A stretch of 64,000 nt of DNA from an uncultured Ectothiorhodospiraceae bacterium. GTDB taxonomy: Bacteria; Pseudomonadota; Gammaproteobacteria; S012-40. The translations under genes and the position numbers were made by a program. The stretch is taken from positions 6,088 through 70,087 of the forward strand of contig CALZJE010000003.1 in NCBI GenBank assembly GCA_945787715.1. Reading direction: 5' to 3'. Shown piece by piece: positions 14,462 to 32,304 of this stretch. How positions within the stretch are numbered: the stretch's first letter is position 1; every line of letters begins with the position of its first letter. The notes beneath the pieces were generated by a model that had not been told where the DNA came from, ran no database searches, and saw nothing but the letters and a program-made list of their open reading frames with translations.

Positions 14462-14724
14462 TAGTTATTAACATCTCTATATATAAATATATATCTATAT
14501 ATAAAAATTTGTTGTTGTTATTGAGTCTAAAATATTTGTGGGTAACTTCTATTATCTTATTATTATTCAATATGTTATTTATCAGTATAAGGCTCAACAA
14601 GTTGTATGGATATACTCATCTAAGCTGTGGATAACTTGTTTACAAATATGGTCTTTTTTACATAGAAAATTTTATCAACAGCTTATACACAAGCTACACA
14701 AGTGTTATACACGCGTTCTTTAAG
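14462..14724. repeat. DnaA-box module copy B
   Basis: Direct repeat of copy A at an offset of about 641 bp. It carries the only perfect DnaA box in the region. Confidence 0.7.
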
Positions 14725-14857
14725 TCAACTTTTGATATTTTTTAACCATTTCCCTCCACTTTTTCAGCTACAATATGCAGTATTTTTTGTAATCCTCCAC
14801 CTGTTGTTATTCTAGGATCGGCTCCTTGGAGTATCTGGAGGTTATGTTTTAATTTTT

Positions 14858-15916: not shown

Positions 15917-16143
15917 GTGTTTATAAATTGGATGCTAGACGTTTACTCTGTCCGATGCCGGTAATTCGTACTCAGAATAAAATAAAAACACTTAAAGCGG
16001 GAGACACACTGGAAGTAATTTGTACTGATCCAGGCGTACTTCAAGATATCCCTGCTTGGTGTAGAATTAATGGACATAAGTTTCTGAGTCACGAAACAGT
16101 TGATGAAGAAATTATTTTAAAAATAGAGGTGGGCGAAGATTGA
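15904..16143 (+). CDS. TusA/SirA-family sulfur carrier protein
   Basis: 79 aa. LDARRLLCPMPVIRTQNKIKTLKAGDTLEVICTDPG has the CPxP active-site motif. Uses a GTG start and overlaps the upstream gene by 13 nt. Confidence 0.75.
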   Translation: MASVSVYKLDARRLLCPMPVIRTQNKIKTLKAGDTLEVICTDPGVLQDIPAWCRINGHKFLSHETVDEEIILKIEVGED

Positions 16144-17303: not shown

Positions 17304-17422
17304 TCTATATTGGTGCTAATTGGTTTCTGCATGTGTTTTTTTAGTGCGCTTATTAATATTTACTATAATTTATAAACGGATTTTGTTAATTAAGCTATTG
17401 TTATAAATAAGTAATTGTGTAT

Positions 17423-17438
17423 TGGCATATGTAATGCT
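17423..17438 (+). promoter_or_regulatory. Sigma-54 (-24/-12) promoter of glnA
   Basis: TGGCAT-ATGTA-ATGCT with GG and GC exactly 12 nt apart, about 59 nt upstream of the glnA ATG. Confidence 0.7.
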
Positions 17439-17496
17439 TAAATAAACAAAATTAAAATTTTAAAGTGTCTCCAATTTTATTTTAAAGGGTGAGAAA

Positions 17497-18903: not shown

Positions 18904-18923
18904 TTTATTCTTTATTTTGTTTG

Positions 18924-18953
18924 AAAAACGCCCCTTTACGGGGCGTTTTTTTT
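18924..18953 (+). terminator. Rho-independent terminator after glnA
   Basis: AAAAACGCCCC-TTTAC-GGGGCGTTTTTTTT. Confidence 0.85.
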
Positions 18954-19043
18954 GCTGCTGAATTCTTTGATATTGCGTAGAATTATTGAGTAATAATTTC
19001 ATCAACTATTGAATCATTTAGTGACTTTATTGAGGTCAGCACA

Positions 19044-19595
19044 TTGCGAATAACTTTTCTAATACTGTTTTTCTTTTCAGCAAAACTCTCTGCTGCGGTC
19101 TACCAATACCAGGACGAAAATGGAAAGATAGTATTCACAGATAAAGAAGTACCTGGTAGCGTAGAGCGCAAAGTTCAATCACCACCTATAATTAAATTTC
19201 GCAAAGAAGAACAGGTTAAAAAAGAAATAGCGCCAACAGATAATAGTTTTACTGATATTACTGTTACAGAAAATAAAAACAAACCTAAGCCGTATACAAA
19301 ATTTAAAATTAGAAAACCGGTTGATGATGACAATTTTCGCGATAACTTAGGAAACGTACATCTGCAATTAGATATTTCACCTGGGATTCAAACTCAACAT
19401 GGTCATAAGCTCAAGGTTGAGTTTGATGGAAAAATGTTAACGGGTAGTTGGACCAGTTCAACTATCTCTTTTTTTAATGTGAATCGGGGTACTCATACAA
19501 TCCGTGCTTTCATTGTAGATAAAGCTGGTAAAAAAATTAAATCAACAAATACCAACACATTTCATCTACAACGGTTTTCGAAACTATTTCGTTAA
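19044..19595 (+). CDS. DUF4124-domain secreted protein
   Basis: Signal peptide MRITFLILFFFSAKLSA followed by VYQYQDENGKIVFTDK, which is DUF4124-like. Uses a TTG start. Confidence 0.6.
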   Translation: MRITFLILFFFSAKLSAAVYQYQDENGKIVFTDKEVPGSVERKVQSPPIIKFRKEEQVKKEIAPTDNSFTDITVTENKNKPKPYTKFKIRKPVDDDNFRDNLGNVHLQLDISPGIQTQHGHKLKVEFDGKMLTGSWTSSTISFFNVNRGTHTIRAFIVDKAGKKIKSTNTNTFHLQRFSKLFR

Positions 19596-19646
19596 TCCAC
19601 TTTCACGCGCTTCATCTGCACAATCTTTTTGTATGATTCTTATTCG

Positions 19647-19663
19647 CGCACTATAATGGTGCG
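19647..19663. promoter_or_regulatory. NtrC-type binding-site candidate upstream of ntrB
   Basis: CGCACTA-TAA-TGGTGCG compared with the enteric NtrC consensus TGCACCA-N3-TGGTGCA. Confidence 0.5.
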
Positions 19664-19758
19664 TTGTTAAAATGCGGAATTCGTATATCCCATCTCTGTG
19701 CTTGATATTTTGAATATTGCGATTGTTAACACACTGTTTTTATTCGTGATTATTTAAA

Positions 19759-20886
19759 ATGGTCGATGCGTCTTTTATTGGTTTAACTATTGCAGAGAAG
19801 TTAAATATGGTGCCGAACGAAAAGTGTAATAATTCAATATCAAAAGATTTGCTATACGCAAATATGTCTACAGCGTTGTTGCTGTTAGATGCAAATATGA
19901 AAGTTGTTGAAGCGAATCAAGCGACTGAAAATTTGCTCAATACCAGTGCAAGGCGAATTAAAGGTCTAGATGTTCATCAATTATTTGCAGGATCAGAAGC
20001 CTTTTTAAGTGCGCTCAAGCAAAGTAAGAATAATAAATTCAATGTCACTAAAAGCGAATTAGATCTACTCGTTCCTCATCTGTTACGTGTCATCAAAGTT
20101 GATTGTATTTTTTCACCAATCATCGAAAACGAACAAATTTTGATTGAGATGACGCAAATAGATGAAAAATTACGCGCGGCCAAAGAAGAGCATATTATTG
20201 AGCAGCAGGATGTTTTAAAAATATTGGTGAGAGGTTTTGCTCATGAGGTAAAAAATCCTCTCGGCGGAATTAGAGGCGCCGCACAATTACTTGAACGTGA
20301 GTTACCCTTCGATGATTTGAAAGAATATACCGACGTTATTATTGGTGAAACTGATCGCTTGCAAAAGTTGGTTGATGACATGCTGGGTCCAAATCGACCG
20401 ATGTCTAAAGAACCTGTCAATATACACAAGGTAATCGAACGAGTTCGTCAACTTGTTTTAGCTGAATCGGATGGAAAGTTGATATTCCGTCGCGATTATG
20501 ACCCAAGCTTACCGGAGATTTTTGCAGATTCAGATCAACTCATTCAATCCGTTTTGAATATAGTTCGTAACGCTAAGCAAGCAATGAATGGTGAAGGCGA
20601 AATTGTTGTTCGAACACGTTCAAGACACCATGTAATGATTGGACAAAGACATCATCGCTTGGTTGTTGGTGTAGAAATTATTGATAACGGGCCAGGGATT
20701 GCGCCTGATCTTTTAGACAAAATATTTTATCCAATGATTACCGGTCGTGCTGAAGGTACTGGGCTAGGTTTATCAATAGCCCAGACATTGATTGGCCAAC
20801 ACGGCGGTATTATTGAATGTAATAGCAAGCCTGGAGAAACAAACTTTACGTTGTTGATTCCAATTAATGCTAAGGAAACGGTGTAA
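19759..20886 (+). CDS. ntrB: Nitrogen regulation sensor histidine kinase NtrB
   Basis: N-terminal PAS domain, H-box FAHEVKNPLGGIRGAAQLL, N/G boxes IVRNAKQA and DNGPGI..GTGLGLSI. Directly precedes ntrC. Confidence 0.9.
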   Translation: MVDASFIGLTIAEKLNMVPNEKCNNSISKDLLYANMSTALLLLDANMKVVEANQATENLLNTSARRIKGLDVHQLFAGSEAFLSALKQSKNNKFNVTKSELDLLVPHLLRVIKVDCIFSPIIENEQILIEMTQIDEKLRAAKEEHIIEQQDVLKILVRGFAHEVKNPLGGIRGAAQLLERELPFDDLKEYTDVIIGETDRLQKLVDDMLGPNRPMSKEPVNIHKVIERVRQLVLAESDGKLIFRRDYDPSLPEIFADSDQLIQSVLNIVRNAKQAMNGEGEIVVRTRSRHHVMIGQRHHRLVVGVEIIDNGPGIAPDLLDKIFYPMITGRAEGTGLGLSIAQTLIGQHGGIIECNSKPGETNFTLLIPINAKETV

Positions 20887-20891
20887 ATATA

Positions 20892-22307
20892 ATGGCAAAA
20901 AAAGAACATATTTGGGTCATTGATGACGACAAATCAATTCGCTGGGTGTTAGAGCGTGCTTTAAGCAAAGCGGATATGGATGTTGATTGCTTTGAAAGCG
21001 CTTCAGGTATTCTCGATAAACTATCAAAAGGATTACCGGATGCGATAGTTTCGGATATTCGCATGCCAGGACAAGATGGTTTGGCGCTTCTTTCAGACAT
21101 TAATAAAGCTTATCCTGATCTCCCAGTAATCATTATGACGGCTCACTCCGATCTGGACAGTGCGGTATCGTCCTATGAAGGCGGTGCATTTGAATATTTG
21201 CCTAAACCCTTTGATGTTGACGATGCAGTTGATCTGGTAAGACGAGCAGTGGATCATAGTAGAAGTGCTACTACTAACGTCAGTGAACAAACTGAAGCTA
21301 CACAAACAGAAATTATTGGCGAAGCAGCAGCGATGCAGGAAGTGTTTCGAGCGATTGGGAGATTATCTCGTTCGAATATCACCGTTATGATAAATGGTGA
21401 ATCTGGGACGGGTAAGGAGCTTGTTGCGAGTGCACTTCATCGCCATAGTCCAAGAGCGTCTAATCCTTTTATCGCACTAAATACCGCTGCTATTCCAAAA
21501 GATTTATTGGAATCAGAACTATTTGGTCACGAAAGAGGTGCTTTTACTGGCGCGCAAACAACACGACGTGGCCGTTTTGAACAGGCTGATGGCGGAACAT
21601 TGTTTCTTGATGAAATTGGTGATATGCCCGCCGATTTACAAACTCGGCTTTTGCGGGTTTTAGCATCTGGAGAATTCTATCGGGTTGGTGGTCATGATCC
21701 CGTTAAAGTCAATGTTAGAATTATTGCAGCCACACACCAAGACCTGGAAGAGCGAGTAGGTAAAGGAAAATTCAGGGAAGACCTATTTCATCGTTTAAAT
21801 GTTATACGTATACATTTACCCGCCTTACGTGAAAGGCAAGAAGATATTCCACTATTGTTAAACTATTTTCTCGTTCGAGCAGCGAAGGAATTAAGTGTTG
21901 ATGTAAAAAGATTAAGGCCTGAAACTGCAAAGTTTTTGAGTCAGTTACAGTGGCCAGGTAATGTAAGACAGTTAGAAAATGTGTGCCGCTGGTTAACTGT
22001 GATGGCCCCAGGTCCTGAAATTCATGTAGAAGATCTTCCGGCGGAATTAAGAGAAGATGTGGTTAAAGCAAGCAGCAATTCTGATTGGGAAGGCGCTTTA
22101 AAGCTTTGGGCAAAAAGCAAGCTCTTGGCAGATGATCAAGGTATTATGGAGAATGCGACTCCCAGGTTCGAAAAAATATTGATAGAAGTTGCTTTAGCGC
22201 ATACCGCTGGGCGAAAACAGGAAGCTGCTAAATTGCTCGGAATTGGTAGAAATACACTGACGAGAAAGTTGAAAGAACTCAAAATAATTAGTGACGATGC
22301 AGCGTAA
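20892..22307 (+). CDS. ntrC: Nitrogen regulation response regulator NtrC (sigma-54 activator)
   Basis: Receiver domain (VIDDD..SDIRMPG..LPKP), AAA+ domain [14 protein letters not shown] loop, C-terminal Fis-type HTH. Confidence 0.93.
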
Positions 22308-22631
22308 CACTAGCTCCTGGCTATCTCCACTAACCGGTGAACTTGTACAGCAATCAAACCAATTCCTTGCACTCCAATCTCATACTCAACGGATCTTTTA
22401 AGATTTATCTTATCGGTTCCATTCCCGTATTAAACTTAGAAAAAAGTAGATTCATGAAATATACTCTGAGGGCTGTAACCCAACCCTTGTTTCGCCTAGC
22501 GATATGAAAAGCAATACTTTGTGTTTTTTTGATAGCCAGCTGCCTTTTCTAGGATAAGCCTAGAAAAATCAGTTGATCCGTGATTTAGCGCACAACCACT
22601 TGATTCACTTGGCAATATGAAAAGTATTTGA

Positions 22632-22648
22632 ATCACCAACCTGGTGAT
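22632..22648. promoter_or_regulatory. Perfect palindrome; enhancer (UAS) candidate
   Basis: ATCACCA-ACC-TGGTGAT, i.e. 7-3-7 with the same architecture as NtrC sites, located about 200 bp upstream of the sigma-54 promoter at 22837. Confidence 0.4.
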
Positions 22649-22736
22649 CATAAATATTTTCATTACGCCAATCAAACCGCACACTTGCATGCTAATTTCG
22701 CATCCAACAGATCTTTCTAGGTTAAACGTTTTTAGC

Positions 22737-22752
22737 GCGAAGTTTCCTTCGC
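22737..22752. promoter_or_regulatory. Second palindrome; enhancer (UAS) candidate
   Basis: GCGAAG-TTTC-CTTCGC, about 90 bp upstream of the -24 element. Related TTCGC motifs are at about 22707 (TTCGCATCC) and about 22790 (CTTCGCTTCGAA). Confidence 0.35.
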
Positions 22753-22836
22753 ATCAATTTACTTCATTATTCAAAAATACGAATCAATCTTCGCTTCGAA
22801 AACATTTAAGTCATTGTTTTATATATGTATTAATCT

Positions 22837-22852
22837 TGGCATTCATTCTGCT
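22837..22852 (+). promoter_or_regulatory. Sigma-54 (-24/-12) promoter of the five-gene cassette
   Basis: TGGCAT-TCATT-CTGCT with GG (22838-39) and GC (22850-51) 12 nt apart. It lies 56 nt upstream of ATG 22908, which has the SD AAAGGAG. Confidence 0.7.
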
Positions 22853-22907
22853 CCTATGCAAGAGATTAGTTTGATGTGATATTCAACCACGAATAAAGGA
22901 GAACAAC

Positions 22908-23627
22908 ATGCATGATTTAGATCAGACCCAACTCGATTATAGCCGTGCAGAGTTTGATGATGACGAGTTTGAGTTAGAAGGGGAGTTCGAAAATGATATG
23001 GCTGTGTCAGGTGCTGATGAATATGAGGATGAGGATGAGTTTGAAAGTGAATATGAGTTCGAATCCAACTTTGATGGAAACAGTCCTTTTAGTGAAGCAG
23101 AGGAAATGGAGCTTGCTGCGGAATTAATGGAAATTGCAGACGATGGGGAATTGGAATATTTTCTAGGTAGGCTGATTAAACGCGGCGCTCGACGGGTTGG
23201 TCGTAGGCTACGTAAACGTGTAGGTACACGGTTGAGAAAGGGGTTAAAAAGACTTGCTAAACGCGGTTTGAGATTCGCAGGTGGAGCTGTTGGTGGTGCG
23301 TTAGGTGGTCCTGTTGGAGCCGTGGTAGGACGAGCTGCGGGTCGTGGATTGGGAAAAGTGTTTGGACTTGAATTAGAAGGTATGAGTCTGGAAGACCAAG
23401 AGTTTGAAGCAGCGCGTCAATTTGTTCGGCTTGCAGGTGATGCTACCTCTACTGCAACAGCAATTCCCTCTTCTGTTAATGAAGAAGTTGTTGCTCACAA
23501 GGCGCTGAAAAGATCAGTGGTAAAATTTGCACCGGGACTCGCAGGTAAAACCAGACGCTCTGTTCGTGGAGAAAAATCTGGACGCTGGGTTCGTAAAGGT
23601 TCTAGCATCATTCTAATGGGTGTTTGA
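22908..23627 (+). CDS. Tripartite acidic / poly-cationic / glycine-zipper protein (candidate pro-toxin or pro-peptide)
   Basis: 239 aa. Residues 1-85 contain 35 D/E and one Arg (DEYEDEDEFESEYEFES). Residues 88-122 contain 18 R/K and no acidic residue (RLIKRGARRVGRRLRKRVGTRLRKGLKRLAKRGLR). Residues 123-153 contain 12 Gly (AGGAVGGALGGPVGAVVGRAAGRGLGKVFG). The tail is basic (..GRWVRKGSSIILMGV). Strong SD; first gene after the sigma-54 promoter. Confidence 0.7.
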   Translation: MHDLDQTQLDYSRAEFDDDEFELEGEFENDMAVSGADEYEDEDEFESEYEFESNFDGNSPFSEAEEMELAAELMEIADDGELEYFLGRLIKRGARRVGRRLRKRVGTRLRKGLKRLAKRGLRFAGGAVGGALGGPVGAVVGRAAGRGLGKVFGLELEGMSLEDQEFEAARQFVRLAGDATSTATAIPSSVNEEVVAHKALKRSVVKFAPGLAGKTRRSVRGEKSGRWVRKGSSIILMGV

Positions 23628-24946
23628 GTCCCATGACTACCCCGCTGGTACGACAAGTTCTGAGCAATGAGACTCAAGCACTGATGGCTCGTCTCAGAGG
23701 AATTAAGCCGTTTTCCTTACATGTGCCGATGGTTGCTGCCGCTGCTTTGCAAACTTCAGCTCAACAATTGATAGAGCAGCATATGCACAGGGTATTGTCG
23801 TCAGTCGCTCAGATGCTCGGAACATATGAAGACTGGTTAAATAGTGAGGCGGGGCGTCGAACCAAAGATGCCACTGCACAGCGACATCTAACACTGGTGA
23901 GATTGCGTTTCCATGCAGCATTGACGCAGTTTGATCTTTTTTCAGATGTACTTACTCAGCGTAGTGAACATGAGTTTGGTGTCTGGCTCGCTGGACTTGA
24001 TGCACTAGCAGTGGATGCATTAAAAATAGAAGGAAAATACTTCGAACTGCCAGGTGTCGCGTGTTATCTAGATCGAGGAATAGGTGCTGCTATTCGACGG
24101 GTACGTACACGCTTACCTGGCGGGCGTGAAAATCCTGTTGCTATAATTCGAGTTCCTCGTGAGCGGATGATTGGCTCAGGCATCGCTTCATCGTTGGTTC
24201 ATGAAGTCGGGCATCAGGGTGCTGCGTTGCTAAACCTTGTGGAATCATTACGAAAGGAATTGCAGAGAAAAATTCATTCTGACGGATCGCCGTGGCGTTT
24301 ATGGCAACAATGGATATCAGAAATCATTGCTGACTTTTGGTCTGTAGCGCAGATCGGTGTGGGTTCTACTTTGGGTTTAATGGGTGTTGTTAGCTTACCG
24401 CGTGCATTTGTATTTAGAATTAGTGAAGAGGATCCTCATCCTTCACCGTGGATACGAGTCATGTTGAGTGCATCGATTGGCCAAGCCCTTTATCCGGATT
24501 CTCAATGGCGTCGTCTTCGTGAAGTTTGGATGCGTCTTTATCCGCGCACAGGTATCGATCCGGAAAAGGAACAACTGTTTCAAGGTTTGGAAGCTACGAT
24601 ACAGGAGTTTGTTGAGTTATTAACTCAACATCGGCCACGAACACTAGAAGGGATATCATTGTTAGAAATTTTCCCTGTTTCAGATAGACAACCAGATCGG
24701 TTAAGAAACTTATATGGTCAATGGTCAGGGAGGTTTAACGCTTGGCGCACCTCGTCCCCGGCGTTAGCGTTTGCCGTTATCGGACAAGCACGCGCTGATG
24801 ATCGACTAAGTGTATCAGATGAATCGAATCTTATTAATAGACTATTAAACCATTGGGCATTCAATCGAAATGATTTAAATAATCAATGCGGATGTAGACC
24901 TAAGGCGAATGCATATTCAACTGCAGTTATATCTACTGCGTTATAA
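23624..24946 (+). CDS. Orphan HExxH (gluzincin-like) putative metallopeptidase
   Basis: 440 aa. SSLVHEVGHQG (H193-H197, nt 24200-24214) with a candidate third ligand E233 in WISEIIADFW. The TTG 23624 / ATG 23633 start overlaps or abuts the upstream stop, which suggests translational coupling. Confidence 0.55.
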   Translation: MSPMTTPLVRQVLSNETQALMARLRGIKPFSLHVPMVAAAALQTSAQQLIEQHMHRVLSSVAQMLGTYEDWLNSEAGRRTKDATAQRHLTLVRLRFHAALTQFDLFSDVLTQRSEHEFGVWLAGLDALAVDALKIEGKYFELPGVACYLDRGIGAAIRRVRTRLPGGRENPVAIIRVPRERMIGSGIASSLVHEVGHQGAALLNLVESLRKELQRKIHSDGSPWRLWQQWISEIIADFWSVAQIGVGSTLGLMGVVSLPRAFVFRISEEDPHPSPWIRVMLSASIGQALYPDSQWRRLREVWMRLYPRTGIDPEKEQLFQGLEATIQEFVELLTQHRPRTLEGISLLEIFPVSDRQPDRLRNLYGQWSGRFNAWRTSSPALAFAVIGQARADDRLSVSDESNLINRLLNHWAFNRNDLNNQCGCRPKANAYSTAVISTAL

Positions 24947-24957
24947 GGAGTCTTGTA

Positions 24958-26826
24958 ATGAAACAAATAGATAATATATCGATTATACAATCTCACCATG
25001 CCGTAGTGCCGGACGGTGCAGTTTCTCTACGCTTATCAGAGAACTATGTAGATGTAACAAAGTACACATATATTTGGCGTACTCCTGAATCGTTGGGTGA
25101 GTTTAATTATATTGATCAACCCAATGTTATATGGACCGCTCCATTAAAAGCAGCAGGTGTGGTAGAAATAAGCGTAGAGATTATGCCTAAAAGCGGACAG
25201 AGTGGAGGTAAGAAACGCAATACACGTGCTTCATCGGAAAATTCCACGGCTGAATCTACACATCTCGAAAATATAGAGACAATAATCATCTCAACTACGG
25301 TGGAAGTTACGCCAAATGCTTTGCCTTTAGATGTAGTTGGTGCGATTGGAGAAGGTGTTAAGGCTATCAAAGAGGGTCTACCCGGTCAGGAAATACGTTT
25401 GGAGCGACAATTTCCTGCGCTTACGCCTCAAAAATCATTGTGGGCTATTATTCGCGACCGTACCAATGCAATTTCATTTAACAATTACAAAGCATTTATC
25501 GACTCGATTATGTGTGGCGGTGATACCTATCACAGCAAACAGATTCCCCATGAAGTTAAAGAATATGTCAATTTTGATCCGAGTAAATTGCACTACCGAG
25601 GTACCGAGTCGTATGAGGTTTTACGAAAAGCGACAGAAGCATTTCTGATGCATGAAATTGGTGCTTTACCCACTCCCGTAAATGAATCTGAAAAATTTCC
25701 CTTAGCAGACCCTGCTGAACAAAAACGGCGTTTACCACAACTCGCGGGTTCAAATGACGAAGAAGTTCAAATGGAAATGGAAAGTAATCGAACTGAATAT
25801 TTAAAAACATTGGAAGACGAAAGTCGGACCTTTCCTTATTTTAAACTTATCCGCGATCGTTTAAGTGAGATACCCCTTAAACCTCCTGGCTCATCAGGAG
25901 AAGGATGTTATGGATTATTGCGTTCGCGAATTTCACCACCAATTTTACTAGAATTAATCTGGTCTTATTGGCACGAAGAAGGAGGTTTGGTGCAAACAAT
26001 GAAAGCCATTAATATGCGCTTTCAGAACCGTTTATATAATCCACGTAAAAATGGGAGCGATCCGTTGGCTAATCTTAACTTGGATCCGTTACGTCCTATG
26101 AGCAATATTATTTGGGGATATATTCAAAATGAGCACGAGCATTTAACGTTATCAAGACGCGCTTATGAATACGATCATCATTATGGATTCAGTATCGCCG
26201 GAAAGGCAGTACCCAAACTCAACTCTGCCGATAGCCGTACTAAATTTTTAGAGGCGTTTCACAGTCTTCTTCATCGTGCCTCGGTGTTTTACAAAGAGCA
26301 ATCTGATACAACTAAAGTACCCGATGGTTATCCGTTGCTAAATGGATTGAAGGAATGTCATTTGTTGCTGGCTGAAGGTGCACATAACCAATTTGGTGAT
26401 TTACCCTGGACAGCGCGTATTGAAATGCTCATCGAGCAATGGATGTTAGCGCGGCCAGAAACACGGAATTTTTTGAACCGACGAGTGATGGTGCCTTACT
26501 CAGAAGAGTGGATGCCAGCGGTTGATCAAATGAAAGACTTGCAAGGTTGGTCAGGTGGTACCGTGCGTCATTTTCGAGATCTAGGAACGTTCGGTGAACA
26601 AATCTTGTTGTCAGTACGTTATGGAGATTGGAGTGAAAATTTTAATGAAGATGAAGCCAAAATCTGGGCTCAGTATTGGCGACAGGAGATTCAAGGTTAT
26701 ATCAATGCGTATCGTTCAGTAACGAGTGTAGACTTGGGATCGGATGCAGATCTGGCAAATGCTACGCTATCTCGTCAACGATCGACTGCACCTGCCGAGT
26801 TATTGAAACAGCAAGGTACTCGTTGA
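24958..26826 (+). CDS. Large hypothetical protein, no recognisable domain
   Basis: 622-aa uninterrupted ORF with SD AAGGAG 7 nt upstream. An N-terminal ~75-aa beta-rich module and a Ser/Gly/Lys linker are followed by a Trp/His-rich helical body (LLELIWSYWHEEGGLVQTMKAINMRFQN). Confidence 0.6.
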   Translation: MKQIDNISIIQSHHAVVPDGAVSLRLSENYVDVTKYTYIWRTPESLGEFNYIDQPNVIWTAPLKAAGVVEISVEIMPKSGQSGGKKRNTRASSENSTAESTHLENIETIIISTTVEVTPNALPLDVVGAIGEGVKAIKEGLPGQEIRLERQFPALTPQKSLWAIIRDRTNAISFNNYKAFIDSIMCGGDTYHSKQIPHEVKEYVNFDPSKLHYRGTESYEVLRKATEAFLMHEIGALPTPVNESEKFPLADPAEQKRRLPQLAGSNDEEVQMEMESNRTEYLKTLEDESRTFPYFKLIRDRLSEIPLKPPGSSGEGCYGLLRSRISPPILLELIWSYWHEEGGLVQTMKAINMRFQNRLYNPRKNGSDPLANLNLDPLRPMSNIIWGYIQNEHEHLTLSRRAYEYDHHYGFSIAGKAVPKLNSADSRTKFLEAFHSLLHRASVFYKEQSDTTKVPDGYPLLNGLKECHLLLAEGAHNQFGDLPWTARIEMLIEQWMLARPETRNFLNRRVMVPYSEEWMPAVDQMKDLQGWSGGTVRHFRDLGTFGEQILLSVRYGDWSENFNEDEAKIWAQYWRQEIQGYINAYRSVTSVDLGSDADLANATLSRQRSTAPAELLKQQGTR

Positions 26827-26863
26827 TGCCCATGTTTCACCTCAACTCTTACTACTAGGAGGG

Positions 26864-27694
26864 ATGATAATGTTTGAAGATGGAGATTACGATGATTTAC
26901 GTGAGGAAAAGTTTCTGAACTGGCCAGAAAGGAACAGACCTCCACGCCTAAAAAGTCGGATTGCTGCCCTACATCGTTCTTATTCGCCTGATCCAGTAGG
27001 TCGGGTTCAGCGTAATAACTCAATACGATCAAAAGATGATATGGTGGAATTTAATTTTTCAGGTTTAGAAGTAGACGGATTTATTTCACGAGAGGTAGAA
27101 GATGAACAGTTTCTAAATTATTTATGGCCATTCTCATCAGATCCCAATATTGTGGATCGCACAGCTTATTCACCTAAGTCTAAGCGAAAGAAAATTCGAG
27201 ATATTGATACAGTTTATGCACTGGTTTTACATCAAGCAGGCTTTAGTCGTGGAAATGATCCTAAAAAATATAATAATGTGACTTCTCATTTTGTCATTAT
27301 GCCAAACGGAACTATTCTTCAACTCCACCCTTTGACTGCCTATTTATATTCTTCCAATGGGTTTAATCGGGGTAGTGTAGCTGTTGAATTTATCGGTAAT
27401 TTTCCTAGCGAGCGTGGCAGATGCTGGAAACCTGAAAAGTATGGTTGTAATCAGGTTTCAAACGATCAAATTGAGGCAGGTCGACAATTAATTAGATATT
27501 TAAGGAAAAAAATAGGGCTGACTCACGTGTTGGCGCACCGTCAATCGAGTGGTTCGAGAGGCAATGATCCGGGGCCAGACCTTTGGCACCAAGTTGGGCA
27601 ATGGGGTGTAAATAAGCTAGGGCTAAATGATGGGGGGCATGGTTTTAAAATTCAGTCGGGTAAGGCAATTCCTGATTCATGGCGTAAAACTTAG
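26864..27694 (+). CDS. N-acetylmuramoyl-L-alanine amidase, amidase_2 (AmpD/PGRP/T7-lysozyme) fold, no signal peptide
   Basis: YALVLHQAGFS (first His ligand), GSVAVEFIGNF, and LAHRQSSGSRGNDPGPDLW (His, then Asp 10 residues later, followed by DPGP). About 110 aa of unassigned N-terminal extension precede the domain. The likely start is ATG 26870, downstream of AGGAGG. Confidence 0.8.
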   Translation: MIMFEDGDYDDLREEKFLNWPERNRPPRLKSRIAALHRSYSPDPVGRVQRNNSIRSKDDMVEFNFSGLEVDGFISREVEDEQFLNYLWPFSSDPNIVDRTAYSPKSKRKKIRDIDTVYALVLHQAGFSRGNDPKKYNNVTSHFVIMPNGTILQLHPLTAYLYSSNGFNRGSVAVEFIGNFPSERGRCWKPEKYGCNQVSNDQIEAGRQLIRYLRKKIGLTHVLAHRQSSGSRGNDPGPDLWHQVGQWGVNKLGLNDGGHGFKIQSGKAIPDSWRKT

Positions 27695-27730
27695 ATCGAA
27701 AAACCATTAAATATAATCATTGAAGGAAAA

Positions 27731-28645
27731 TTGGTGAGAGATATGAGGTCTTATGAAGAACTAAGTAGAGTTTCCCATGAAAATGGCAAAGATAAAGAGT
27801 TTTATTATAAGTCGAAGGTTAGACCGGTTTCTAATTCTATGGGTGATTTTAGTCAACAGGAAATTGTTGACGATTTTGACGATAGAAAAAGACTTGGCAG
27901 TATCAAAGATACACCTTATAGGTGGATATGCATGCTGGATTTGCACACAAAAAGTGGATTATTTGGTGGGACTGGAGTACTCATTTCCCCCAGACACATT
28001 CTTACGGCTGGGCATAACCTAGATGGTTGTAATAAAGTAGTAGTGGTGCCTGGAATTAATGGTCGCTTCAAGCCATTTGGAAGTTACGAATCTACAACGA
28101 TGATTGCCCACGATAAATGGAAAAAACATAGAGACGATAATTTTGATATTGGCATGATAAAACTTTCCAAACCGGTTGGGAATCAAAGGTTTAATTCAAT
28201 AAAGGGAAATGTTCTGGGTCATTGGGGACATTCTGCTTTCGGAATGGGTACGAGAATTATACCATTTGTGCAGAGCAATCAATTAAACAAAAAAGCAAAT
28301 ATTGCTGGTTATCCAAGTGATAAAGGATTTACGCAGCTTTGGTGGGATGCGGGTAAAATTGTCAATACCGCGCCTGCCAAAGCATCAGGAGCAATCTATT
28401 ACACTATGGATACATGTGGTGCTCAAAGTGGAAGTCCAGTTTGGTTAAGAAGTAAAAGTTCAGGAGCAAGATTTTTAATTGCTATACATAGTGGTCCATG
28501 TTTATTAGATGGCTCAGATTGCAAAGAATTATCTGGAAAGCTTTGTCCCGGTAGTAGTTTACGTAAACCACACTCTTCTAATATGGGGGTATTTTTAACA
28601 GCGGGACTAATTAAGACGATTAGAAGTTGGATTCGCTCTATGTAA
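27731..28645 (+). CDS. S1B (V8-like, COG3591-type) trypsin-fold serine endopeptidase, no signal peptide
   Basis: Catalytic triad contexts ILTAGHNL (His), NFDIGMIKL (Asp) and DTCGAQSGSPVW (Ser, GxSGSPV as in V8/SspA). The likely start is ATG 27746. Confidence 0.8.
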   Translation: MVRDMRSYEELSRVSHENGKDKEFYYKSKVRPVSNSMGDFSQQEIVDDFDDRKRLGSIKDTPYRWICMLDLHTKSGLFGGTGVLISPRHILTAGHNLDGCNKVVVVPGINGRFKPFGSYESTTMIAHDKWKKHRDDNFDIGMIKLSKPVGNQRFNSIKGNVLGHWGHSAFGMGTRIIPFVQSNQLNKKANIAGYPSDKGFTQLWWDAGKIVNTAPAKASGAIYYTMDTCGAQSGSPVWLRSKSSGARFLIAIHSGPCLLDGSDCKELSGKLCPGSSLRKPHSSNMGVFLTAGLIKTIRSWIRSM

Positions 28646-28735
28646 TCGCTATTAGAAATAATACCAAACAAATTTGTTCAACGTTATAAGTATTAAAGGT
28701 TTCGATAACTAACAAGTAAGTGTATTAATGACAGT

Positions 28736-30085
28736 TTATGAATGATTTTCTTGTTGCTTGCGCAACTGTAGCGCTCGCGGCGTAATTTTTAATTGCTTTG
28801 CAATCTTCGCGGTAGAGCCATTATGTTCAGCCATAGCAACATCGATAGCAACATCGGCGGCAGCACTACTAATTTCTTTTAAGCCCACGCCCAGTGAGAG
28901 TGCTTTACGAACAGCGGCTTCAAGATCTCCACGGCGCCAGTCACTCGTTTCTCTTGTGATGTTTTGAAATTCATCGTGGGGTATATCACCGATCGTATAT
29001 TGGCCGTCGCAAACATGACGGCCTCGCATGCGTAAGCAAAGCTGTCGAAGATCACGAATATTACCAGGATAAGCACGATTAATGAGATGGTGCTGTACGG
29101 CTGAGTCGAGTTCTGGATTTATATCATTTTGATGACGGAGGAAATGTTTAGCTAACGATAGAATGTCTTCCTTACGTTGTGAAAGTGATGGCAGCGTAAC
29201 GGTCCAATCTGCGAGACGGTAATAAAGATCACGGCGAAAACGCCCTGCTTCAATTTCTTCTAATAAATTTCGATTTGTAGCGCAGACTAGTCTGAAATCG
29301 GTGTCATGCCATGTGTTGCCACCGACTCGTTTGTAACGTTTTTCTTGAAAAACGCGTAGCAGTTGCACTTGAAGATCCAATGGCAACTCGCCGACTTCGT
29401 CTAGAAATAAGACACCACCGTCGGCCCGCGAAAATGCTCCTTCACGTTGACTACCTGCTCCGGTAAAAGCACCGCGCTCGTGACCAAAAAATTCACTGCC
29501 AGATAGGCTTGGGACAATGGTGGCACAATCTACTATGCTAAGTTCCTGCTGACTACGCAGAGGATCTACGGAATGAATAACTTTTGCAGCGAGTTCTTTT
29601 CCTGTTCCCGTTTCACCGTTAATTAAAACTGCATAATCACTAAATCTCGCGGCTTCAACAATTTGCCTTAAGGCCATTAGCCAAGGTATGCTGTGGCCAA
29701 TGACGATATCTTGTATTTCTGGGGAATTAGTGATTTTATTTACTCTCTCCCAACGACGAAGACGTACTGCAATATGGTCAGCTGTTTTACCTTCGTTGTC
29801 CCATAAGACGACGTCACTCGCGCCAGCTTCAATCAAACGATATACATCGTTACTATTTAGGTAGTCTGGGTTTGTGGTTACTGCGATAACGCGCTGTTGG
29901 GTTCTACAAGAGAATTTAGAAATACAGCTATATACATTGTCATCGGCATGATCGAATACGATAATCGCGGCTTTCGCATTATCTTTTGTATCGTCAATAC
30001 AAAAAATCACGCCTCGATTAATGAGGATTTGATGGATCGAATCGCGATTCACTACACCCAAGCAATTTAGGACTGTCCGTGTCAT
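28736..30085 (-). CDS. Sigma-54-dependent transcriptional activator (bEBP) with atypical receiver-like N-domain
   Basis: AAA+ domain with GETGTGKE, an intact GAFTGA loop ([13 protein letters not shown]), Walker B LFLDEVGEL, and a C-terminal HTH (STAKIAKQLKITPRALQLR). The N-terminal ~120 aa are receiver-like, but VLWD replaces the K-P motif. Convergent with the cassette. Confidence 0.9.
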   Translation of the reverse strand: MTRTVLNCLGVVNRDSIHQILINRGVIFCIDDTKDNAKAAIIVFDHADDNVYSCISKFSCRTQQRVIAVTTNPDYLNSNDVYRLIEAGASDVVLWDNEGKTADHIAVRLRRWERVNKITNSPEIQDIVIGHSIPWLMALRQIVEAARFSDYAVLINGETGTGKELAAKVIHSVDPLRSQQELSIVDCATIVPSLSGSEFFGHERGAFTGAGSQREGAFSRADGGVLFLDEVGELPLDLQVQLLRVFQEKRYKRVGGNTWHDTDFRLVCATNRNLLEEIEAGRFRRDLYYRLADWTVTLPSLSQRKEDILSLAKHFLRHQNDINPELDSAVQHHLINRAYPGNIRDLRQLCLRMRGRHVCDGQYTIGDIPHDEFQNITRETSDWRRGDLEAAVRKALSLGVGLKEISSAAADVAIDVAMAEHNGSTAKIAKQLKITPRALQLRKQQENHS

Positions 30086-30631
30086 TTGCCACCTCTGGAT
30101 TCACACTGATTTTTTTGGGTATTACATTACCCATCTTATGTTTATTAGCTACCAGGTAATTACACAGAACCCACAAACCATGTAAATCTAGGGTGGTTAT
30201 TTCATTATGAAATTTGTTGAAGAAAGTCAATCAATCATTGAAATATTATTTATCATGGTAGAAAAAAGGTAAAACTTATAACTGTTTTTTTAAATATTGA
30301 TCAGCAATTCGTTACGATATGAAGTAATGTAGTGAAAATTACCAAAACTTAAAAACTGTGCAGTAGTTAGTACTAAACCATTGTTTTCTTAAAACTTACT
30401 TAAGACTATTTAAAGTGAGTTAATCAGAATGTCAGTAGTCGGATAATCCAATCTTCAAGTGTATTATTTCTCTTGCTGTATCCGGCAATTTAAACAACAA
30501 AATGTAGGCCAACACCGATATACATTGAAAGATATTAGATTCACCGCTTAGTTTCGTTTGATATTGGACAAGGCTATTATTTTTAAATTCTCATAATTAC
30601 GATATGATATTCATTTTTATGAATGTGAATT

Positions 30632-31096
30632 ATGTTTATCGTCGCTCTATACGAACCAGAAATCCCACCCAATACAGGAAATATTATTCGGCTTTGTTCA
30701 AATATCGGAGCTGAACTCCACTTGATAAAACCGCTGGGTTTTGATCTGGATGATAAAAAATTACGTCGAGCTGGATTGGACTATAGTGAGTGGGTGGATG
30801 TTAAAATCCACGAAAACTACGATACTTTTCTTGAGTCATTAGGCTCATCACGGATATTTGCATGTTCAACTCACGGTACTAAACGTTATACTGATATGAG
30901 CTATCGAGATGGGGATGTTTTTTTATTTGGGCCAGAGACTCGAGGTTTACCGAAAGAATTACGGTTGGATTTTCCACCAGATCAAGTGATAAAACTCCCT
31001 ATGGTGCCGAATAATCGAAGCCTGAATTTATCTAATGCAACTTCAATTATTTTATATGAAGCGTGGCGGCAGTTAGACTTTATAGGAGCAGAGTAA
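30632..31096 (+). CDS. trmL: tRNA (cytidine/uridine-2'-O-)-methyltransferase TrmL (SpoU family)
   Basis: 154 aa. ALYEPEIPPNTGNIIRLCSNIGAELHLIKPLGF and LFGPETRGLP. Confidence 0.88.
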   Translation: MFIVALYEPEIPPNTGNIIRLCSNIGAELHLIKPLGFDLDDKKLRRAGLDYSEWVDVKIHENYDTFLESLGSSRIFACSTHGTKRYTDMSYRDGDVFLFGPETRGLPKELRLDFPPDQVIKLPMVPNNRSLNLSNATSIILYEAWRQLDFIGAE

Positions 31097-31101
31097 AATG
31101 G

Positions 31102-32304
31102 CTATTCAGCTTCGATAATTGAAGCGGTTTCGTCACCAGTTTTAAAGTTGAAATTATACTCTGTACTATTTTTGCCTGACTTATCTGTTACAACCAAAGA
31201 GAACTTATGCTCACCTGCGGTTAGAGGAGCTTTCACGCCCTGGCTTTGTAGTGTGGTAAATTCCTTGGTTACCCTTTCGAATAGATTCAAAATTTCTTCA
31301 GTTTGAGGGTTTTGAAAATAAAGACCTTTCCCAGCTTCTGCAATTGCAGTTAAGCTTTGATCATCAATTTTTTCGCCAAGCCCAATAACATGCACAGTAA
31401 GATTATCAATATTACTTATTTTATTGAGGATCGTTGTCAGTGAAGTTTCTATTCGACCTGACATTAGGTATTCCGCTCCACTCGATGTAACAAAAGGATT
31501 GGGGTTTTGATCGGTGAAAGAACTGTTATCAAATTGACTATAATTGTCTGCGCCATCGGAAAAAACAAGCATCACATTTTGATGATTATTTTCTGTATCT
31601 TCTTCACTGGTTTGACTATTAATCAATTCATCCAATGTGTAATCGATAGCTGCATAAAGTTTTGTATACGTTCCATCAACTGGGCTGGGAATAGTTGTGA
31701 TATCCAGCGGTGACCAGTTTCTATTTTCATTATTCACTGCATAATAAATATATGAGTCGAACCAACTGGATTGAAAAGTGAAATCGCCGGTGCGGTTTTT
31801 CCAGAGTTCTTGGCCGGTTTGTACGCTTTTTTGAGCCGCTTGTAACATTAGCTCAAAAGATTGATTAACTTTCATTGAGTAGCTTGTGTCGAGAACCAGA
31901 TTATAATGAACATTGTACGCGAGTTCTCGTGCACTACTGCTCAAATGGTACTCGACATCAAAGTCTTCATCATCGATTTTTAGCTCTACATCGATTTGAT
32001 CAGGTGTGAGTGGGAGATTATTGTCAGTTCTCGGAATGAATTGCAGAACTATATTAGTAGTACCATGATCTCTGTCGTAGCTTATTGTTGGTTTAGTTAC
32101 CAAATCTATTTTAACATTGCCCGAATAGTTACCTTGATTTTCAGTTTCTGAATCTTTGGGTTCCGTTTCTAACTCATTTTGATCTTTATTCTTTTTTTGT
32201 TTATCAATCTCATTGAGATTACCACCACCACAGGAAATAAGTGCGAACGTAAAAAGCATTACTATTACTAAATCATGGCATTTTACTAGCGTTGTTTTTT
32301 GCAT
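31102..32304 (-). CDS. von Willebrand factor A-domain lipoprotein
   Basis: Lipobox FALISC|GGG. MIDAS-like LVLDTSYSM, then MLVFSDGADN and VHVIGLG. Confidence 0.65.
   Translation of the reverse strand: MQKTTLVKCHDLVIVMLFTFALISCGGGNLNEIDKQKKNKDQNELETEPKDSETENQGNYSGNVKIDLVTKPTISYDRDHGTTNIVLQFIPRTDNNLPLTPDQIDVELKIDDEDFDVEYHLSSSARELAYNVHYNLVLDTSYSMKVNQSFELMLQAAQKSVQTGQELWKNRTGDFTFQSSWFDSYIYYAVNNENRNWSPLDITTIPSPVDGTYTKLYAAIDYTLDELINSQTSEEDTENNHQNVMLVFSDGADNYSQFDNSSFTDQNPNPFVTSSGAEYLMSGRIETSLTTILNKISNIDNLTVHVIGLGEKIDDQSLTAIAEAGKGLYFQNPQTEEILNLFERVTKEFTTLQSQGVKAPLTAGEHKFSLVVTDKSGKNSTEYNFNFKTGDETASIIEAE

What the first reader, a model, noticed from the sequence alone, without database searches (positions are those of the whole stretch)
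28736..30085. Cassette-linked bEBP with a receiver-like domain but no partner kinase
The central AAA+ domain and GAFTGA loop are canonical, so this protein should activate a sigma-54 promoter. The only sigma-54 promoter nearby is the one at 22837. The N-terminal ~120 aa align loosely with a receiver domain (FCIDDTKD.., IIVFDHADD, VIAVTT, LIEAGASDVVLWD). The invariant Lys of the K-P motif appears to be replaced: VLWD here against LPKP in the NtrC encoded at 20892. No histidine kinase is encoded in the insert. This points to a non-phosphorelay input, such as a protein partner, a small molecule or an envelope or phage cue.
Basis: partly seen in the sequence, partly recalled or inferred. Interest (0 to 1): 0.5.

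Follow-up and report, generated by a model that had tools for sequence, protein, structure and literature searches.

The report
Orphan sigma-54 activator with pseudo-receiver domain
This gene encodes a sigma-54 transcription activator whose sensor domain looks like a two-component receiver but has lost the phosphorylation residues, and it travels across many bacterial phyla with an uncharacterised operon of cell-wall-cutting enzymes that it almost certainly switches on.

Summary
Window 28736-30085 (minus strand) encodes a 449-aa bEBP with a canonical AAA+ core, a GAFTGA loop and a Fis-type HTH. Its N-terminal 125 aa match no Pfam model. They fold confidently (pLDDT 93.7) as a CheY-like domain, closest to atypical receivers (CpaE/TadZ) and to bEBP receivers.

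The protein belongs to a large family. Across 166 distinct N-domains, Trp replaces the receiver Lys in 91% (Lys 0%), the acceptor Asp is kept in only 41%, and there is no acidic Mg2+ pocket.

Among loci with at least 9.5 kb of sequence downstream, 47 of 53 carry this bEBP beside a conserved operon: an acidic/basic Gly-rich protein, an HExxH protein, a ~600-aa unknown protein, and leaderless peptidoglycan-binding or hydrolysing enzymes. No kinase is present.

The operon has a conserved sigma-54 promoter preceded by two GCGAA-N6-TTCGC palindromes 41-42 bp apart. In the window these lie at 22737, 22779 and 22837.

A sister genome lacks exactly window 22311-30592, so regulator and target form one 8.3-kb indel.

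The input signal and the cassette's function remain unknown. This is a new variant of a known regulator kind, attached to an apparently undescribed system.

The parts
28736..30085 (-). bEBP gene (449 aa): pseudo-receiver, sigma-54 AAA+ domain, Fis-type HTH
   Evidence: ORF list and translation. Pfam Sigma54_activat E 3e-56. Family alignment A1 shows ~50% identity over ~96% of the length.
29711..30085 (-). N-terminal pseudo-receiver domain (residues 1-125)
29198..29677 (-). AAA+ sigma-54 interaction domain (residues 137-296) with Walker A (157-164), GAFTGA (205-210) and Walker B (226-230)
28763..28846 (-). C-terminal Fis-type helix-turn-helix (residues 414-441)
   Evidence: Pfam HTH_8 E 0.009, below the cut-off. 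The motif G(N/S)..RAA..L.(V/I)T.RALQ.RR is conserved across the family.
22837..22852 (+). Sigma-54 (-24/-12) promoter TGGCATtcattCTGCT, 71 nt upstream of the first cassette ATG
   Evidence: The position is conserved in related loci.
22737..22752 (+). Distal enhancer palindrome GCGAAGTTTCCTTCGC (-100 from the promoter TGG)
   Evidence: It is the only exact GCGAA-N6-TTCGC in the 64-kb window.
22779..22794 (+). Proximal enhancer palindrome ACGAATCAATCTTCGC (-58), 42 bp from the distal one
22908..23627 (+). P1 (239 aa): very acidic N-terminus (net -33 over 90 aa), then a basic stretch (+20) and a Gly-rich segment. It has no Pfam match. Its core domain recurs fused to accessory enzymes in other loci.
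23624..24946 (+). P2 (440 aa): new family with an invariant HExGH motif. Relatives occur in 482 species-representative genomes.
24958..26826 (+). P3 (622 aa): conserved protein of unknown family
26864..27694 (+). P4 (276 aa): Amidase_2 (PGRP/endolysin-type N-acetylmuramoyl-L-alanine amidase) with no signal peptide
   Evidence: Pfam E 4e-12. PHROG endolysin E 7e-12. Hydropathy.
27731..28645 (+). P5 (304 aa): trypsin-like serine protease with no signal peptide
22311..30592 (.). 8,282-bp indel relative to a sister genome. It holds the enhancer, the promoter, P1-P5 and the bEBP, and nothing else.
   Evidence: Sister contig L087 has ntrC, 309 nt, then the SpoU methylase gene. blastn sets the boundaries. 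There are no terminal repeats and no integrase. GC is 0.40-0.48 inside against 0.35-0.39 in the flanks.

Best explanation
The gene encodes the dedicated activator of the convergent five-gene operon at 22908-28645.

How it most likely works. Dimers bind through the C-terminal HTH to the two GCGAA-N6-TTCGC palindromes at 22737 and 22779. The sites are 42 bp apart, so they lie on the same face of the DNA. The protein then assembles into an AAA+ ring. Using its GAFTGA loops and ATP hydrolysis, the ring opens the sigma-54 closed complex at 22837.

The N-terminal domain is a CheY-fold pseudo-receiver that cannot work as a phospho-switch. The conserved residues (W82, G88-A89-S-D91, W95, R108, R111, W112, D116) lie on the alpha4, beta5 and alpha5 elements. 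In NtrC1 and DctD, that face holds the ATPase in an inactive dimer. The most likely role of the N-domain is therefore a phosphorylation-independent gate on ring assembly. The gate would be opened by a protein partner or a small ligand rather than by a kinase.

Regulator, enhancer, promoter and target genes move together as one horizontally transferred module. The targets are leaderless peptidoglycan hydrolases, proteases and a charged Gly-rich protein. These products are potentially lethal, and the tight off-state of a sigma-54 promoter would suit their control.

Shown here: the domain architecture, the fold, the loss of receiver residues, the linkage, the conserved promoter and enhancer, and the indel.

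Inferred: binding of this bEBP to the palindromes, gating by the N-domain, and the nature of the signal and of the output.
For: - Canonical AAA+ domain and GAFTGA loop.
- The full-length model best matches REC-AAA+ bEBPs, including the phosphorylation-independent FleQ and VpsR.
- Census of 166 distinct N-domains: W 91% and K 0% at the Lys position, D 41% at the acceptor position, no acidic pair, Thr/Ser not conserved.
- The N-domain profile finds only 578 clusters among 1.84 billion representatives. The match is always at the N-terminus, and no canonical REC is retrieved.
- Linkage to the cassette.
- Sigma-54 promoters concentrate upstream of P1: 57 of 70 plus-strand hits in 1.39 Mb, against 21 on the whole minus strand.
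- 46 of 56 exact palindromes, and 117 of 233 with at most one mismatch, lie in the 330 nt upstream of the promoters. That interval is 1.8% of the sequence. 48 of 75 promoters carry a pair 41-42 bp apart.
- No palindrome or sigma-54 promoter lies upstream of the bEBP genes, apart from one divergent case among 51.
- No kinase is found among 130 accessory proteins.
- The 8.3-kb indel holds exactly this module.
Against: - No experiment links this protein to the palindromes or to the promoter.
- In this window the promoter has two mismatches to the consensus and is not significant on its own.
- The window protein does retain D45 and T70/T71, so phosphorylation by a non-cognate kinase or by acetyl phosphate is not strictly excluded for this member.
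- Sequence similarity to REC domains is marginal (hhalign probability 10%; no REC hit in a PDB profile search). Homology to receivers therefore rests on fold and colinearity.
- The placement of the conserved residues on the alpha4-beta5-alpha5 face is read from secondary-structure positions, not from inspected coordinates.
- Six of 53 loci with long flanks show no bEBP within 10 kb.
Confidence: 0.72

Rival explanations
1. The N-domain is a working, if divergent, phospho-receiver served by a kinase encoded elsewhere, for example the adjacent NtrB, or by acetyl phosphate.
For: The window protein keeps an Asp at the end of beta3 (D45) and Thr at the end of beta4 (T70/T71). ntrB lies 8 kb away.
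Against: - The Lys is Trp in 91% of family members and never Lys. The acceptor Asp is present in only 41%, and there is no acidic Mg2+-binding pair after beta1.
- The Pfam Response_reg model does not match.
- The module occurs in many phyla without any linked kinase.
- It is a recent insertion next to ntrBC, not an ancestral neighbour of it.
Confidence: 0.06
2. The N-domain is only a constitutive dimerisation or scaffold domain, and the bEBP is intrinsically active. Control comes from an anti-activator that binds the AAA+ domain, as PspA does for PspF, HrpV for HrpS and FleN for FleQ. That anti-activator could be one of the cassette proteins. Alternatively, control comes from the level of the bEBP itself.
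For: - The aromatic-for-Lys substitution and the hydrophobic 'active site' suggest a locked conformation.
- The closest folds, CpaE/TadZ, use their atypical receiver as a structural or dimerisation module.
- Three conserved core proteins of unknown function are always co-encoded.
- The FleQ-FleN complex is among the best full-length structural matches.
Against: - No cassette protein resembles a known anti-activator: P1-P3 have no Pfam, NCBIfam or PADLOC match to PspA, FleN or HrpV.
- The strong conservation of alpha5 residues that lead into the AAA+ domain fits a regulatory linker at least as well.
Confidence: 0.2
3. The pseudo-receiver, or the junction between the receiver and the AAA+ domain, is a small-molecule sensor. 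The ligand could be a nucleotide second messenger such as c-di-GMP, as in FleQ and VpsR, or a cell-wall fragment (muropeptide) that reports envelope damage.
For: - VpsR and FleQ, both c-di-GMP-binding bEBPs with non-phosphorylated REC-like domains, are the best multi-domain structural matches.
- Conserved Arg and Trp residues (R108, R111, W112, W82, W95) are of the type that stack on nucleotides.
- The regulated genes all concern peptidoglycan.
Against: No ligand-binding motif was tested or found. The FleQ Pfam domain does not match. The idea rests on analogy only.
Confidence: 0.15
4. The N-domain is a CARF-like domain and the protein is an RtcR-type regulator.
For: RtcR is the best NCBIfam model and RtcR_PspF2 the best PADLOC model.
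Against: - Both matches cover only the AAA+/HTH part: residues 122-440 against profile positions 164-472. The RtcR score is 260.8 against a cut-off of 650.
- No rtcA or rtcB is nearby.
Confidence: 0.02

Closest known systems
FleQ (Pseudomonas) / FlrA and VpsR (Vibrio): bEBPs with a REC-like N-domain that act without phosphorylation
   Same: The three-domain order is the same: REC-like domain, sigma-54 AAA+ domain, HTH. The receiver-like domain is not used as a phospho-switch, and there is no cognate kinase. They are the best multi-domain structural matches (8p53 TMq 0.54, 7v2b TMq 0.58).
   Different: The Pfam FleQ domain does not match. The N-domain here is a separate sequence family, with an invariant-like GASDV..W motif and an R..RW motif on alpha5. 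c-di-GMP binding and a FleN-like partner are not shown. The targets are peptidoglycan enzymes, not flagella or biofilm genes.
NtrC1 / DctD / NtrC4 / NtrX: receiver-gated bEBPs
   Different: They have the full D-D-D-T-K phosphorylation set and a partner kinase. This family has lost the pocket, the Thr and the Lys and has no kinase.
CpaE/TadZ N-terminal atypical receiver domain
   Different: Those domains are attached to a ParA/MinD-type ATPase for pilus-assembly localisation, not to a sigma-54 activator. Sequence identity is only 16-18%.
RtcR and PspF: bEBPs that each control a single stress operon
   Same: The AAA+ domain is closest to these by profile score. The logic is also shared: one regulator and one adjacent sigma-54 operon, with control that does not involve a phosphorelay.
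   Different: RtcR has a CARF domain and PspF has no N-domain. The target operons (rtcBA, pspABCDE) are unrelated to this cassette.
Phage holin-endolysin cassettes / type 10 secretion (holin plus peptidoglycan hydrolase). This comparison concerns the regulated cassette, not the regulator.
   Same: The cassette encodes leaderless Amidase_2, PG_binding_1, VanY and CHAP enzymes, as endolysin cassettes do.
   Different: No protein has holin-type transmembrane helices. P1-P3 have no phage relatives. The cassette is not found on viral contigs.

Membership tests
Bacterial enhancer-binding protein (sigma-54 activator) | AAA+ Sigma54_activat domain with Walker A and Walker B | tested here: met
   PF00158 E 3e-56 at residues 137-296. 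GETGTGKE at 157-164 and LFLDE at 226-230.
Bacterial enhancer-binding protein (sigma-54 activator) | GAFTGA L1 loop for contact with sigma-54 | tested here: met
   GAFTGA at residues 205-210. G205, A206, T208 and A210 are invariant and F207 and G209 are >=90% conserved in 25 family members.
Bacterial enhancer-binding protein (sigma-54 activator) | C-terminal DNA-binding HTH | tested here: inconclusive
   HTH_8 scores 16.2 bits, E 0.009, below the cut-off of 22. The helix-turn-helix motif is conserved family-wide.
Bacterial enhancer-binding protein (sigma-54 activator) | Cognate -24/-12 promoter with upstream activator sequences | tested here: met
   By comparative genomics only: a promoter upstream of P1 in 55 of 84 loci at <=1 mismatch, and paired palindromes at 48 of the 75 promoters found at <=2 mismatches. 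The window sites are at 22737, 22779 and 22837.
Bacterial enhancer-binding protein (sigma-54 activator) | ATP-dependent open-complex formation with sigma-54 holoenzyme | not testable with these tools
   Requires in vitro transcription or reporter assays.
Response-regulator receiver domain (REC, PF00072) | CheY-like (beta-alpha)5 fold | tested here: met
Response-regulator receiver domain (REC, PF00072) | Match to the REC sequence profile | tested here: not met
   No Response_reg hit at E <= 1. A PDB profile search finds no REC. hhalign probability is 10%.
Response-regulator receiver domain (REC, PF00072) | Acidic Mg2+-binding pair after beta1 | tested here: not met
   The window reads C8-L9-G10-V11-V12-N13. 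The family has G 46% at position 10 and no conserved acidic residue.
Response-regulator receiver domain (REC, PF00072) | Phospho-acceptor Asp at the end of beta3 | tested here: inconclusive
   D45 is present in the window protein. Across 166 family members the position reads D 41%, S 24%, E 9%.
Response-regulator receiver domain (REC, PF00072) | Conserved Thr/Ser at the end of beta4 | tested here: inconclusive
   T70/T71 are present in the window. In the family, position 70 reads A 48%, P 17%, T 8%, S 6%.
Response-regulator receiver domain (REC, PF00072) | Invariant Lys after beta5 (K-P motif) | tested here: not met
   W95 in the window. Family: W 91%, K 0%.
Response-regulator receiver domain (REC, PF00072) | Cognate histidine kinase | tested here: not met
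   No kinase in the 8.3-kb insert. None among 130 accessory proteins of related cassettes. None in three 21-kb contexts.
FleQ/FlrA-type bEBP | N-terminal FleQ domain (PF06490) | tested here: not met
   No hit in the Pfam scan at E <= 1.
FleQ/FlrA-type bEBP | c-di-GMP binding and a FleN-type partner | not tested
   No motif analysis or binding data. No FleN-like (ParA/MinD) gene is in the cassette.
RtcR | CARF N-domain and a score above the NF038308 cut-off | tested here: not met

The most novel reading that the evidence does not exclude
The bEBP, its two-palindrome enhancer and the P1-P2-P3 core together make up a previously undescribed, horizontally mobile system found in many bacterial phyla. 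The system keeps a set of leaderless, pro-peptide-bearing peptidoglycan hydrolases and a cationic Gly-rich membrane-active protein silent behind a sigma-54 promoter. A kinase-independent cue sensed by the pseudo-receiver releases them. That cue could be envelope damage, phage infection or a second messenger. The outcome would be programmed autolysis, abortive infection, or lysis-mediated release of cell-wall-degrading weapons.
Probability: 0.3. Interest if true: 0.8.

Novelty: new variant of a known kind. Interest (0 to 1): 0.6.

Why it matters
bEBPs whose receiver-like domain works without phosphorylation are known (FleQ, VpsR). The regulator is therefore a variant of a known kind, not a new principle.

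What is new is that it defines a distinct, easily recognised family: the GASDV..W motif, no Pfam model, and 578 clusters among 1.84 billion representatives. The family has an unusually clean and fully conserved regulatory circuit. One orphan activator pairs with one enhancer of two GCGAA-N6-TTCGC sites 41-42 bp apart, one sigma-54 promoter and one operon.

The operon encodes three protein families with no annotation and no solved relatives. It also encodes endolysin-like enzymes that lack export signals. It is present in at least 482 species representatives, including nitrifiers, methanotrophs, anammox bacteria, polyphosphate accumulators, acidobacteria, Chloroflexi and rhizobia.

The circuit offers a direct experimental handle on an unknown system. 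Expressing an N-domain-deleted activator should switch the operon on and reveal what it does.

Tried and rejected
- A word-indexed homology search with the N-domain alone found nothing. The full-length query was needed.
- A profile search of PDB sequences with the N-domain returned only de novo designed Rossmann 2x2 proteins and no REC. Sequence alone cannot place the domain.
- RtcR/CARF identity was rejected.
- Canonical receiver was rejected on residue conservation.
- A loose sigma-54 regular expression gave too much background, 513 hits. I replaced it with a <=1-mismatch scan.
- Autoregulation of the bEBP through the same enhancer was rejected: 1 of 51 upstream regions has a site, and that is the divergent case.
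- Phage origin of the cassette: no relative on IMG/VR contigs, and no PHROG match for P1-P3.
- Known defence system: PADLOC gives only marginal LmuA, protease and E1-E2 hits for two of the other proteins tested and nothing for P1-P3.
- Mobile-element signatures at the indel ends: none.
- Rfam families in 22000-31000: none.
- PDB relatives of P2 and P3: none. Pfam on 66 P3 homologues found only an N-terminal CarboxypepD_reg in 9.
- Six literature searches found no description of this cassette or bEBP family.
- The source organism could not be named. Exact look-ups returned unnamed NCBI and JGI records.
- Annotated plasmid hits had no feature tables.
Full report
**1. The observation**

The ORF at 28736..30085 is on the minus strand and encodes 449 aa.
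- Pfam finds a strong Sigma54_activat domain (residues 137-296, E 3e-56), an AAA lid, and a weak Fis-type HTH (414-441, E 0.009).
- Walker A (157-164), GAFTGA (205-210) and Walker B (226-230) are intact.
- The N-terminal ~125 residues match no Pfam family at E <= 1. In particular they do not match Response_reg.
- The NCBIfam and PADLOC matches to RtcR, NorR, NifA and NtrC cover only the AAA+/HTH part and fall far below their cut-offs.
The neighbouring NtrC has a normal receiver with the K-P motif.

**2. What the N-domain is**

The protein is not an oddity. A full-length search found a large family of 450-470-aa proteins about 50% identical over about 96% of the length, N-domain included. None carries a Response_reg annotation.

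The full-length model best matches REC-AAA+ activators. The best multi-domain superpositions are on VpsR and FleQ.

Sequence. Similarity to receivers is marginal: no REC in a PDB profile search and hhalign probability 10%. The hhalign alignment is colinear, however. It places D45 on the acceptor Asp, T70/T71 on the Thr, and W95 on the Lys.

Residue census over 166 distinct family N-domains:

| Receiver position | This family |
|---|---|
| Lys after beta5 | W 91%, K 0% |
| Acceptor Asp (end of beta3) | D 41%, S 24%, E 9% |
| Thr (end of beta4), position 70 | A 48%, P 17%, T 8%, S 6% |
| Acidic pair after beta1 | none |

The conserved residues are instead W5, G40, F44, R65, W82, G88-A89-S-D91-V, W95, R108, R111, W112 and D116. 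Most of these lie on the alpha4, beta5 and alpha5 elements.

A profile of the domain finds only 578 clusters (E <= 0.001) among 1.84 billion representative proteins. The match is always at the N-terminus, and no canonical receiver is retrieved.

The domain is therefore a distinct pseudo-receiver family. It is receiver-like in fold but lacks the phosphorylation chemistry.

**3. What the protein is linked to**

Three genomic contexts reached from bEBP homologues show the same picture. The bEBP is convergent with an operon that encodes:
- a ~220-300-aa protein;
- a ~440-aa protein;
- a ~520-655-aa protein;
- a variable set of Aminotran_1_2-like, trypsin, VanY, Amidase_2 + PG_binding_1, M20 and Amidohydro_2 genes.

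The window has a short version: P1 (239 aa), P2 (440 aa, invariant HExGH), P3 (622 aa), an Amidase_2 protein and a trypsin-like protease.

I then searched species-representative genomes with the P2 alignment. This gave 482 relatives, of which 80 loci were fetched. They come from Nitrosomonas, Nitrosospira, Methylococcales, Competibacteraceae, Accumulibacter, Nitrospira, anammox planctomycetes, Acidobacteriota, Chloroflexi, Burkholderiales, rhizobia and others.
- P1-P2-P3 are colinear in nearly all of these loci, wherever the contig extends far enough.
- Of the 53 loci with at least 9.5 kb downstream of P2, 47 contain a bEBP with this N-domain, nearly always on the opposite strand. A 48th has it cut by the end of the locus.

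Census of 130 accessory proteins lying between P3 and the bEBP:

| Pfam family | Members |
|---|---|
| PG_binding_1 | 30 |
| Amidohydro_2 | 25 |
| Aminotran_1_2 | 22 |
| PG_binding_3 | 11 |
| Peptidase_M20 | 7 |
| Amidase_2 | 7 |
| OmpA | 4 |
| Trypsin | 4 |
| VanY | 3 |
| DUF2272 | 2 |
| CHAP, 3D, papain-like (Peptidase_C1) | 1 each |
| Complete rpoN | 1 |
| Histidine kinase | 0 |

**4. The promoter and enhancer**

In the window the -24/-12 element TGGCATtcattCTGCT (22837-22852) lies 71 nt upstream of the P1 start. Taken alone it is unremarkable: 21 two-mismatch sites in the window against 32.5 expected.

Across the 84 loci it is not unremarkable. A scan allowing at most one mismatch to TGGCAC-N5-TTGCW finds 70 plus-strand sites in 1.39 Mb. 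Of these, 57 lie in the interval upstream of the P1 copies. The whole minus strand has 21.

Upstream of these promoters the palindrome GCGAA-N6-TTCGC is the dominant inverted repeat.
- 46 of the 56 exact copies, and 117 of the 233 copies with at most one mismatch, fall within 330 nt upstream of the promoters. That interval is 1.8% of the sequence.
- 69 of 75 promoters have at least one copy.
- 48 of 75 have two copies, spaced 41-42 bp start to start.

The window has GCGAAGTTTCCTTCGC at 22737-22752 and ACGAATCAATCTTCGC at 22779-22794. These are at -100 and -58 from the promoter, one of the most common arrangements.

The upstream regions of the bEBP genes have neither element (1 of 51, the single divergent case). 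The regulator is therefore not autoregulated through this enhancer.

A conserved family-specific activator next to a conserved family-specific enhancer and sigma-54 promoter is strong comparative evidence that the one acts on the other. The UAS position agrees with the 80-150 bp range described for bEBPs (PMC13207237).

**5. The cassette is an insertion**

A metagenomic contig carries an NtrC at least 90% identical to the window's. Its gene order is glnA, DUF4124, ntrB, ntrC, 309 nt, SpoU methylase, a 383-aa protein, gpsA, secB.

blastn aligns it to window 14338-22310 (89.6% identity) and to 30593-32127. Window 22311-30592 (8,282 bp) has no counterpart.

That segment holds exactly the enhancer, the promoter, P1-P5 and the bEBP.
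- Its GC content is higher than that of the flanks.
- It has no terminal repeats, no integrase and no kinase.
- The cassette is not found on viral contigs. In the plasmid collection it is found only on megaplasmids or chromids.

**6. How it most likely works**

Shown: a canonical sigma-54 ATPase with an HTH; a pseudo-receiver; obligate linkage to one operon; a conserved two-site enhancer and -24/-12 promoter; co-transfer as one module.

Inferred:
- Dimers bind the two palindromes, which are four helical turns apart, and assemble into the active ring.
- The N-domain gates this assembly through its conserved alpha4-beta5-alpha5 surface and its long alpha5. This would work as in NtrC1 and DctD (established knowledge of those proteins), but without phosphorylation.
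- The gate would be opened by a protein or a ligand.

The signal is unknown. The rivals are:
- a constitutive scaffold domain with control by an anti-activator (PspA/FleN/HrpV logic);
- a small-molecule sensor, with c-di-GMP (as in FleQ and VpsR) or muropeptides as candidates;
- a residual phospho-receiver, which is unlikely.

**7. What it controls**

None of P1-P5 has a signal peptide or a clear transmembrane helix. The same holds for the accessory enzymes of other loci. Many of those begin with an acidic-aromatic leader such as MNQEFSFETIPFE...ERGRR or F(T/A)FEAEPFE.

P1 has a 90-residue N-terminus of net charge -33, then a +20 basic stretch, then a Gly-rich segment. Its core domain recurs in one or two free copies. 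It also recurs fused to larger accessory proteins.

P4 matches phage endolysin families.

Leaderless peptidoglycan-binding hydrolases are the signature of enzymes that reach the wall only after the membrane is breached. A sigma-54 promoter gives a very tight off-state. I therefore consider a tightly gated autolysis, abortive-infection or lytic-release module the most attractive reading of the cassette. This is inference only. P1-P3 have no Pfam, NCBIfam, PHROG, PADLOC or PDB relatives, and I could not model them. A cytoplasmic muropeptide-processing role, like that of AmpD, is not excluded.

**8. Comparison with known systems, and novelty**

The regulator works like FleQ and VpsR (REC-like domain without phosphorylation) and resembles NtrC1 and DctD in layout. 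It fails the membership tests for canonical REC, the FleQ domain and RtcR. It is a new variant of a known kind of regulator.

Six full-text searches found no description of the family or of the cassette. The library does not cover subscription journals, so prior description cannot be excluded.

**9. Verdict**

Interest is moderate to good. The pseudo-receiver itself is not surprising. It does, however, mark a widespread and very regularly built sigma-54 circuit that controls an uncharacterised peptidoglycan-directed system, and it gives a simple genetic handle to open that system up.

Noticed in passing
window 22311-30592: This 8,282-bp segment is absent from a sister contig (L087, about 88% nucleotide identity), which joins ntrC to the SpoU methylase gene by 309 nt. 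The insert has no integrase, no terminal repeats and no tRNA target.
   Followed up: yes
window 17423-17438: A second sigma-54 promoter-like site, TGGCATATGTAATGCT, lies about 59 nt upstream of glnA (17497). It is presumably the NtrC-dependent glnAp2. So 22837 is not the only sigma-54 promoter in the neighbourhood.
   Followed up: no
window 22908-23627 (P1); e.g. L011:14630-17011, L054:14474-16177, L015:5599-7254: The P1 core domain (residues ~58-238) occurs as one or two free or tandem copies at the start of the operon. It also occurs fused to the middle or C-terminus of larger accessory proteins in other loci, as if it were a carrier or assembly module.
   Followed up: partly
accessory genes of L001-L073 (alignment A5); window 26864-28645: The peptidoglycan-binding and hydrolysing proteins of these cassettes have no signal peptides. 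Many start with a shared acidic-aromatic leader (MNQEFSFETIPFE..., F[TA]FEAEPFE) followed by an Arg-rich stretch. This could be a pro-peptide or a targeting signal, perhaps cleaved by the HExGH protein or the trypsin-like protease.
   Followed up: partly
L041:18581-20029 (Chloroflexi, Candidatus Leptofilum proximum): One cassette carries its own complete rpoN (Sigma54_AID, CBD and DBD domains) immediately upstream of the bEBP gene.
   Followed up: no
window 23624-24946 (P2) and 24958-26826 (P3): These are two well-conserved protein families (about 50% and 40% identity across phyla) with no Pfam, NCBIfam, PHROG, PADLOC or PDB relative. P2 has an invariant HExGH motif. P3 has a ~470-aa conserved C-terminal region and, in 9 of 66 homologues, an N-terminal CarboxypepD_reg domain.
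   Followed up: partly
window 22486-22511 / 22599-22624 and 22609-22671: Upstream of the enhancer, the insert has a 26-nt direct repeat (81% identical, 113 nt apart) and a 30-nt imperfect palindrome. Their role is unknown, and they are not part of the conserved GCGAA-N6-TTCGC pattern.
   Followed up: no
window 22908-28645 compared with L001-L084: The window cassette is a minimal version. It lacks the ~370-aa Aminotran_1_2-like gene and the ~280-aa Amidohydro_2 gene that close most cassettes, so these two are not essential partners of the bEBP.
   Followed up: partly
window 30071-30073 (codon 5 of the bEBP): The window protein and its 72%-identical relative P0001 lack the otherwise 87%-conserved Trp at position 5 of the N-domain (Val and Ala respectively). 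They have Cys in place of the common Phe at position 8. This marks a divergent low-GC subgroup of the family.
   Followed up: no
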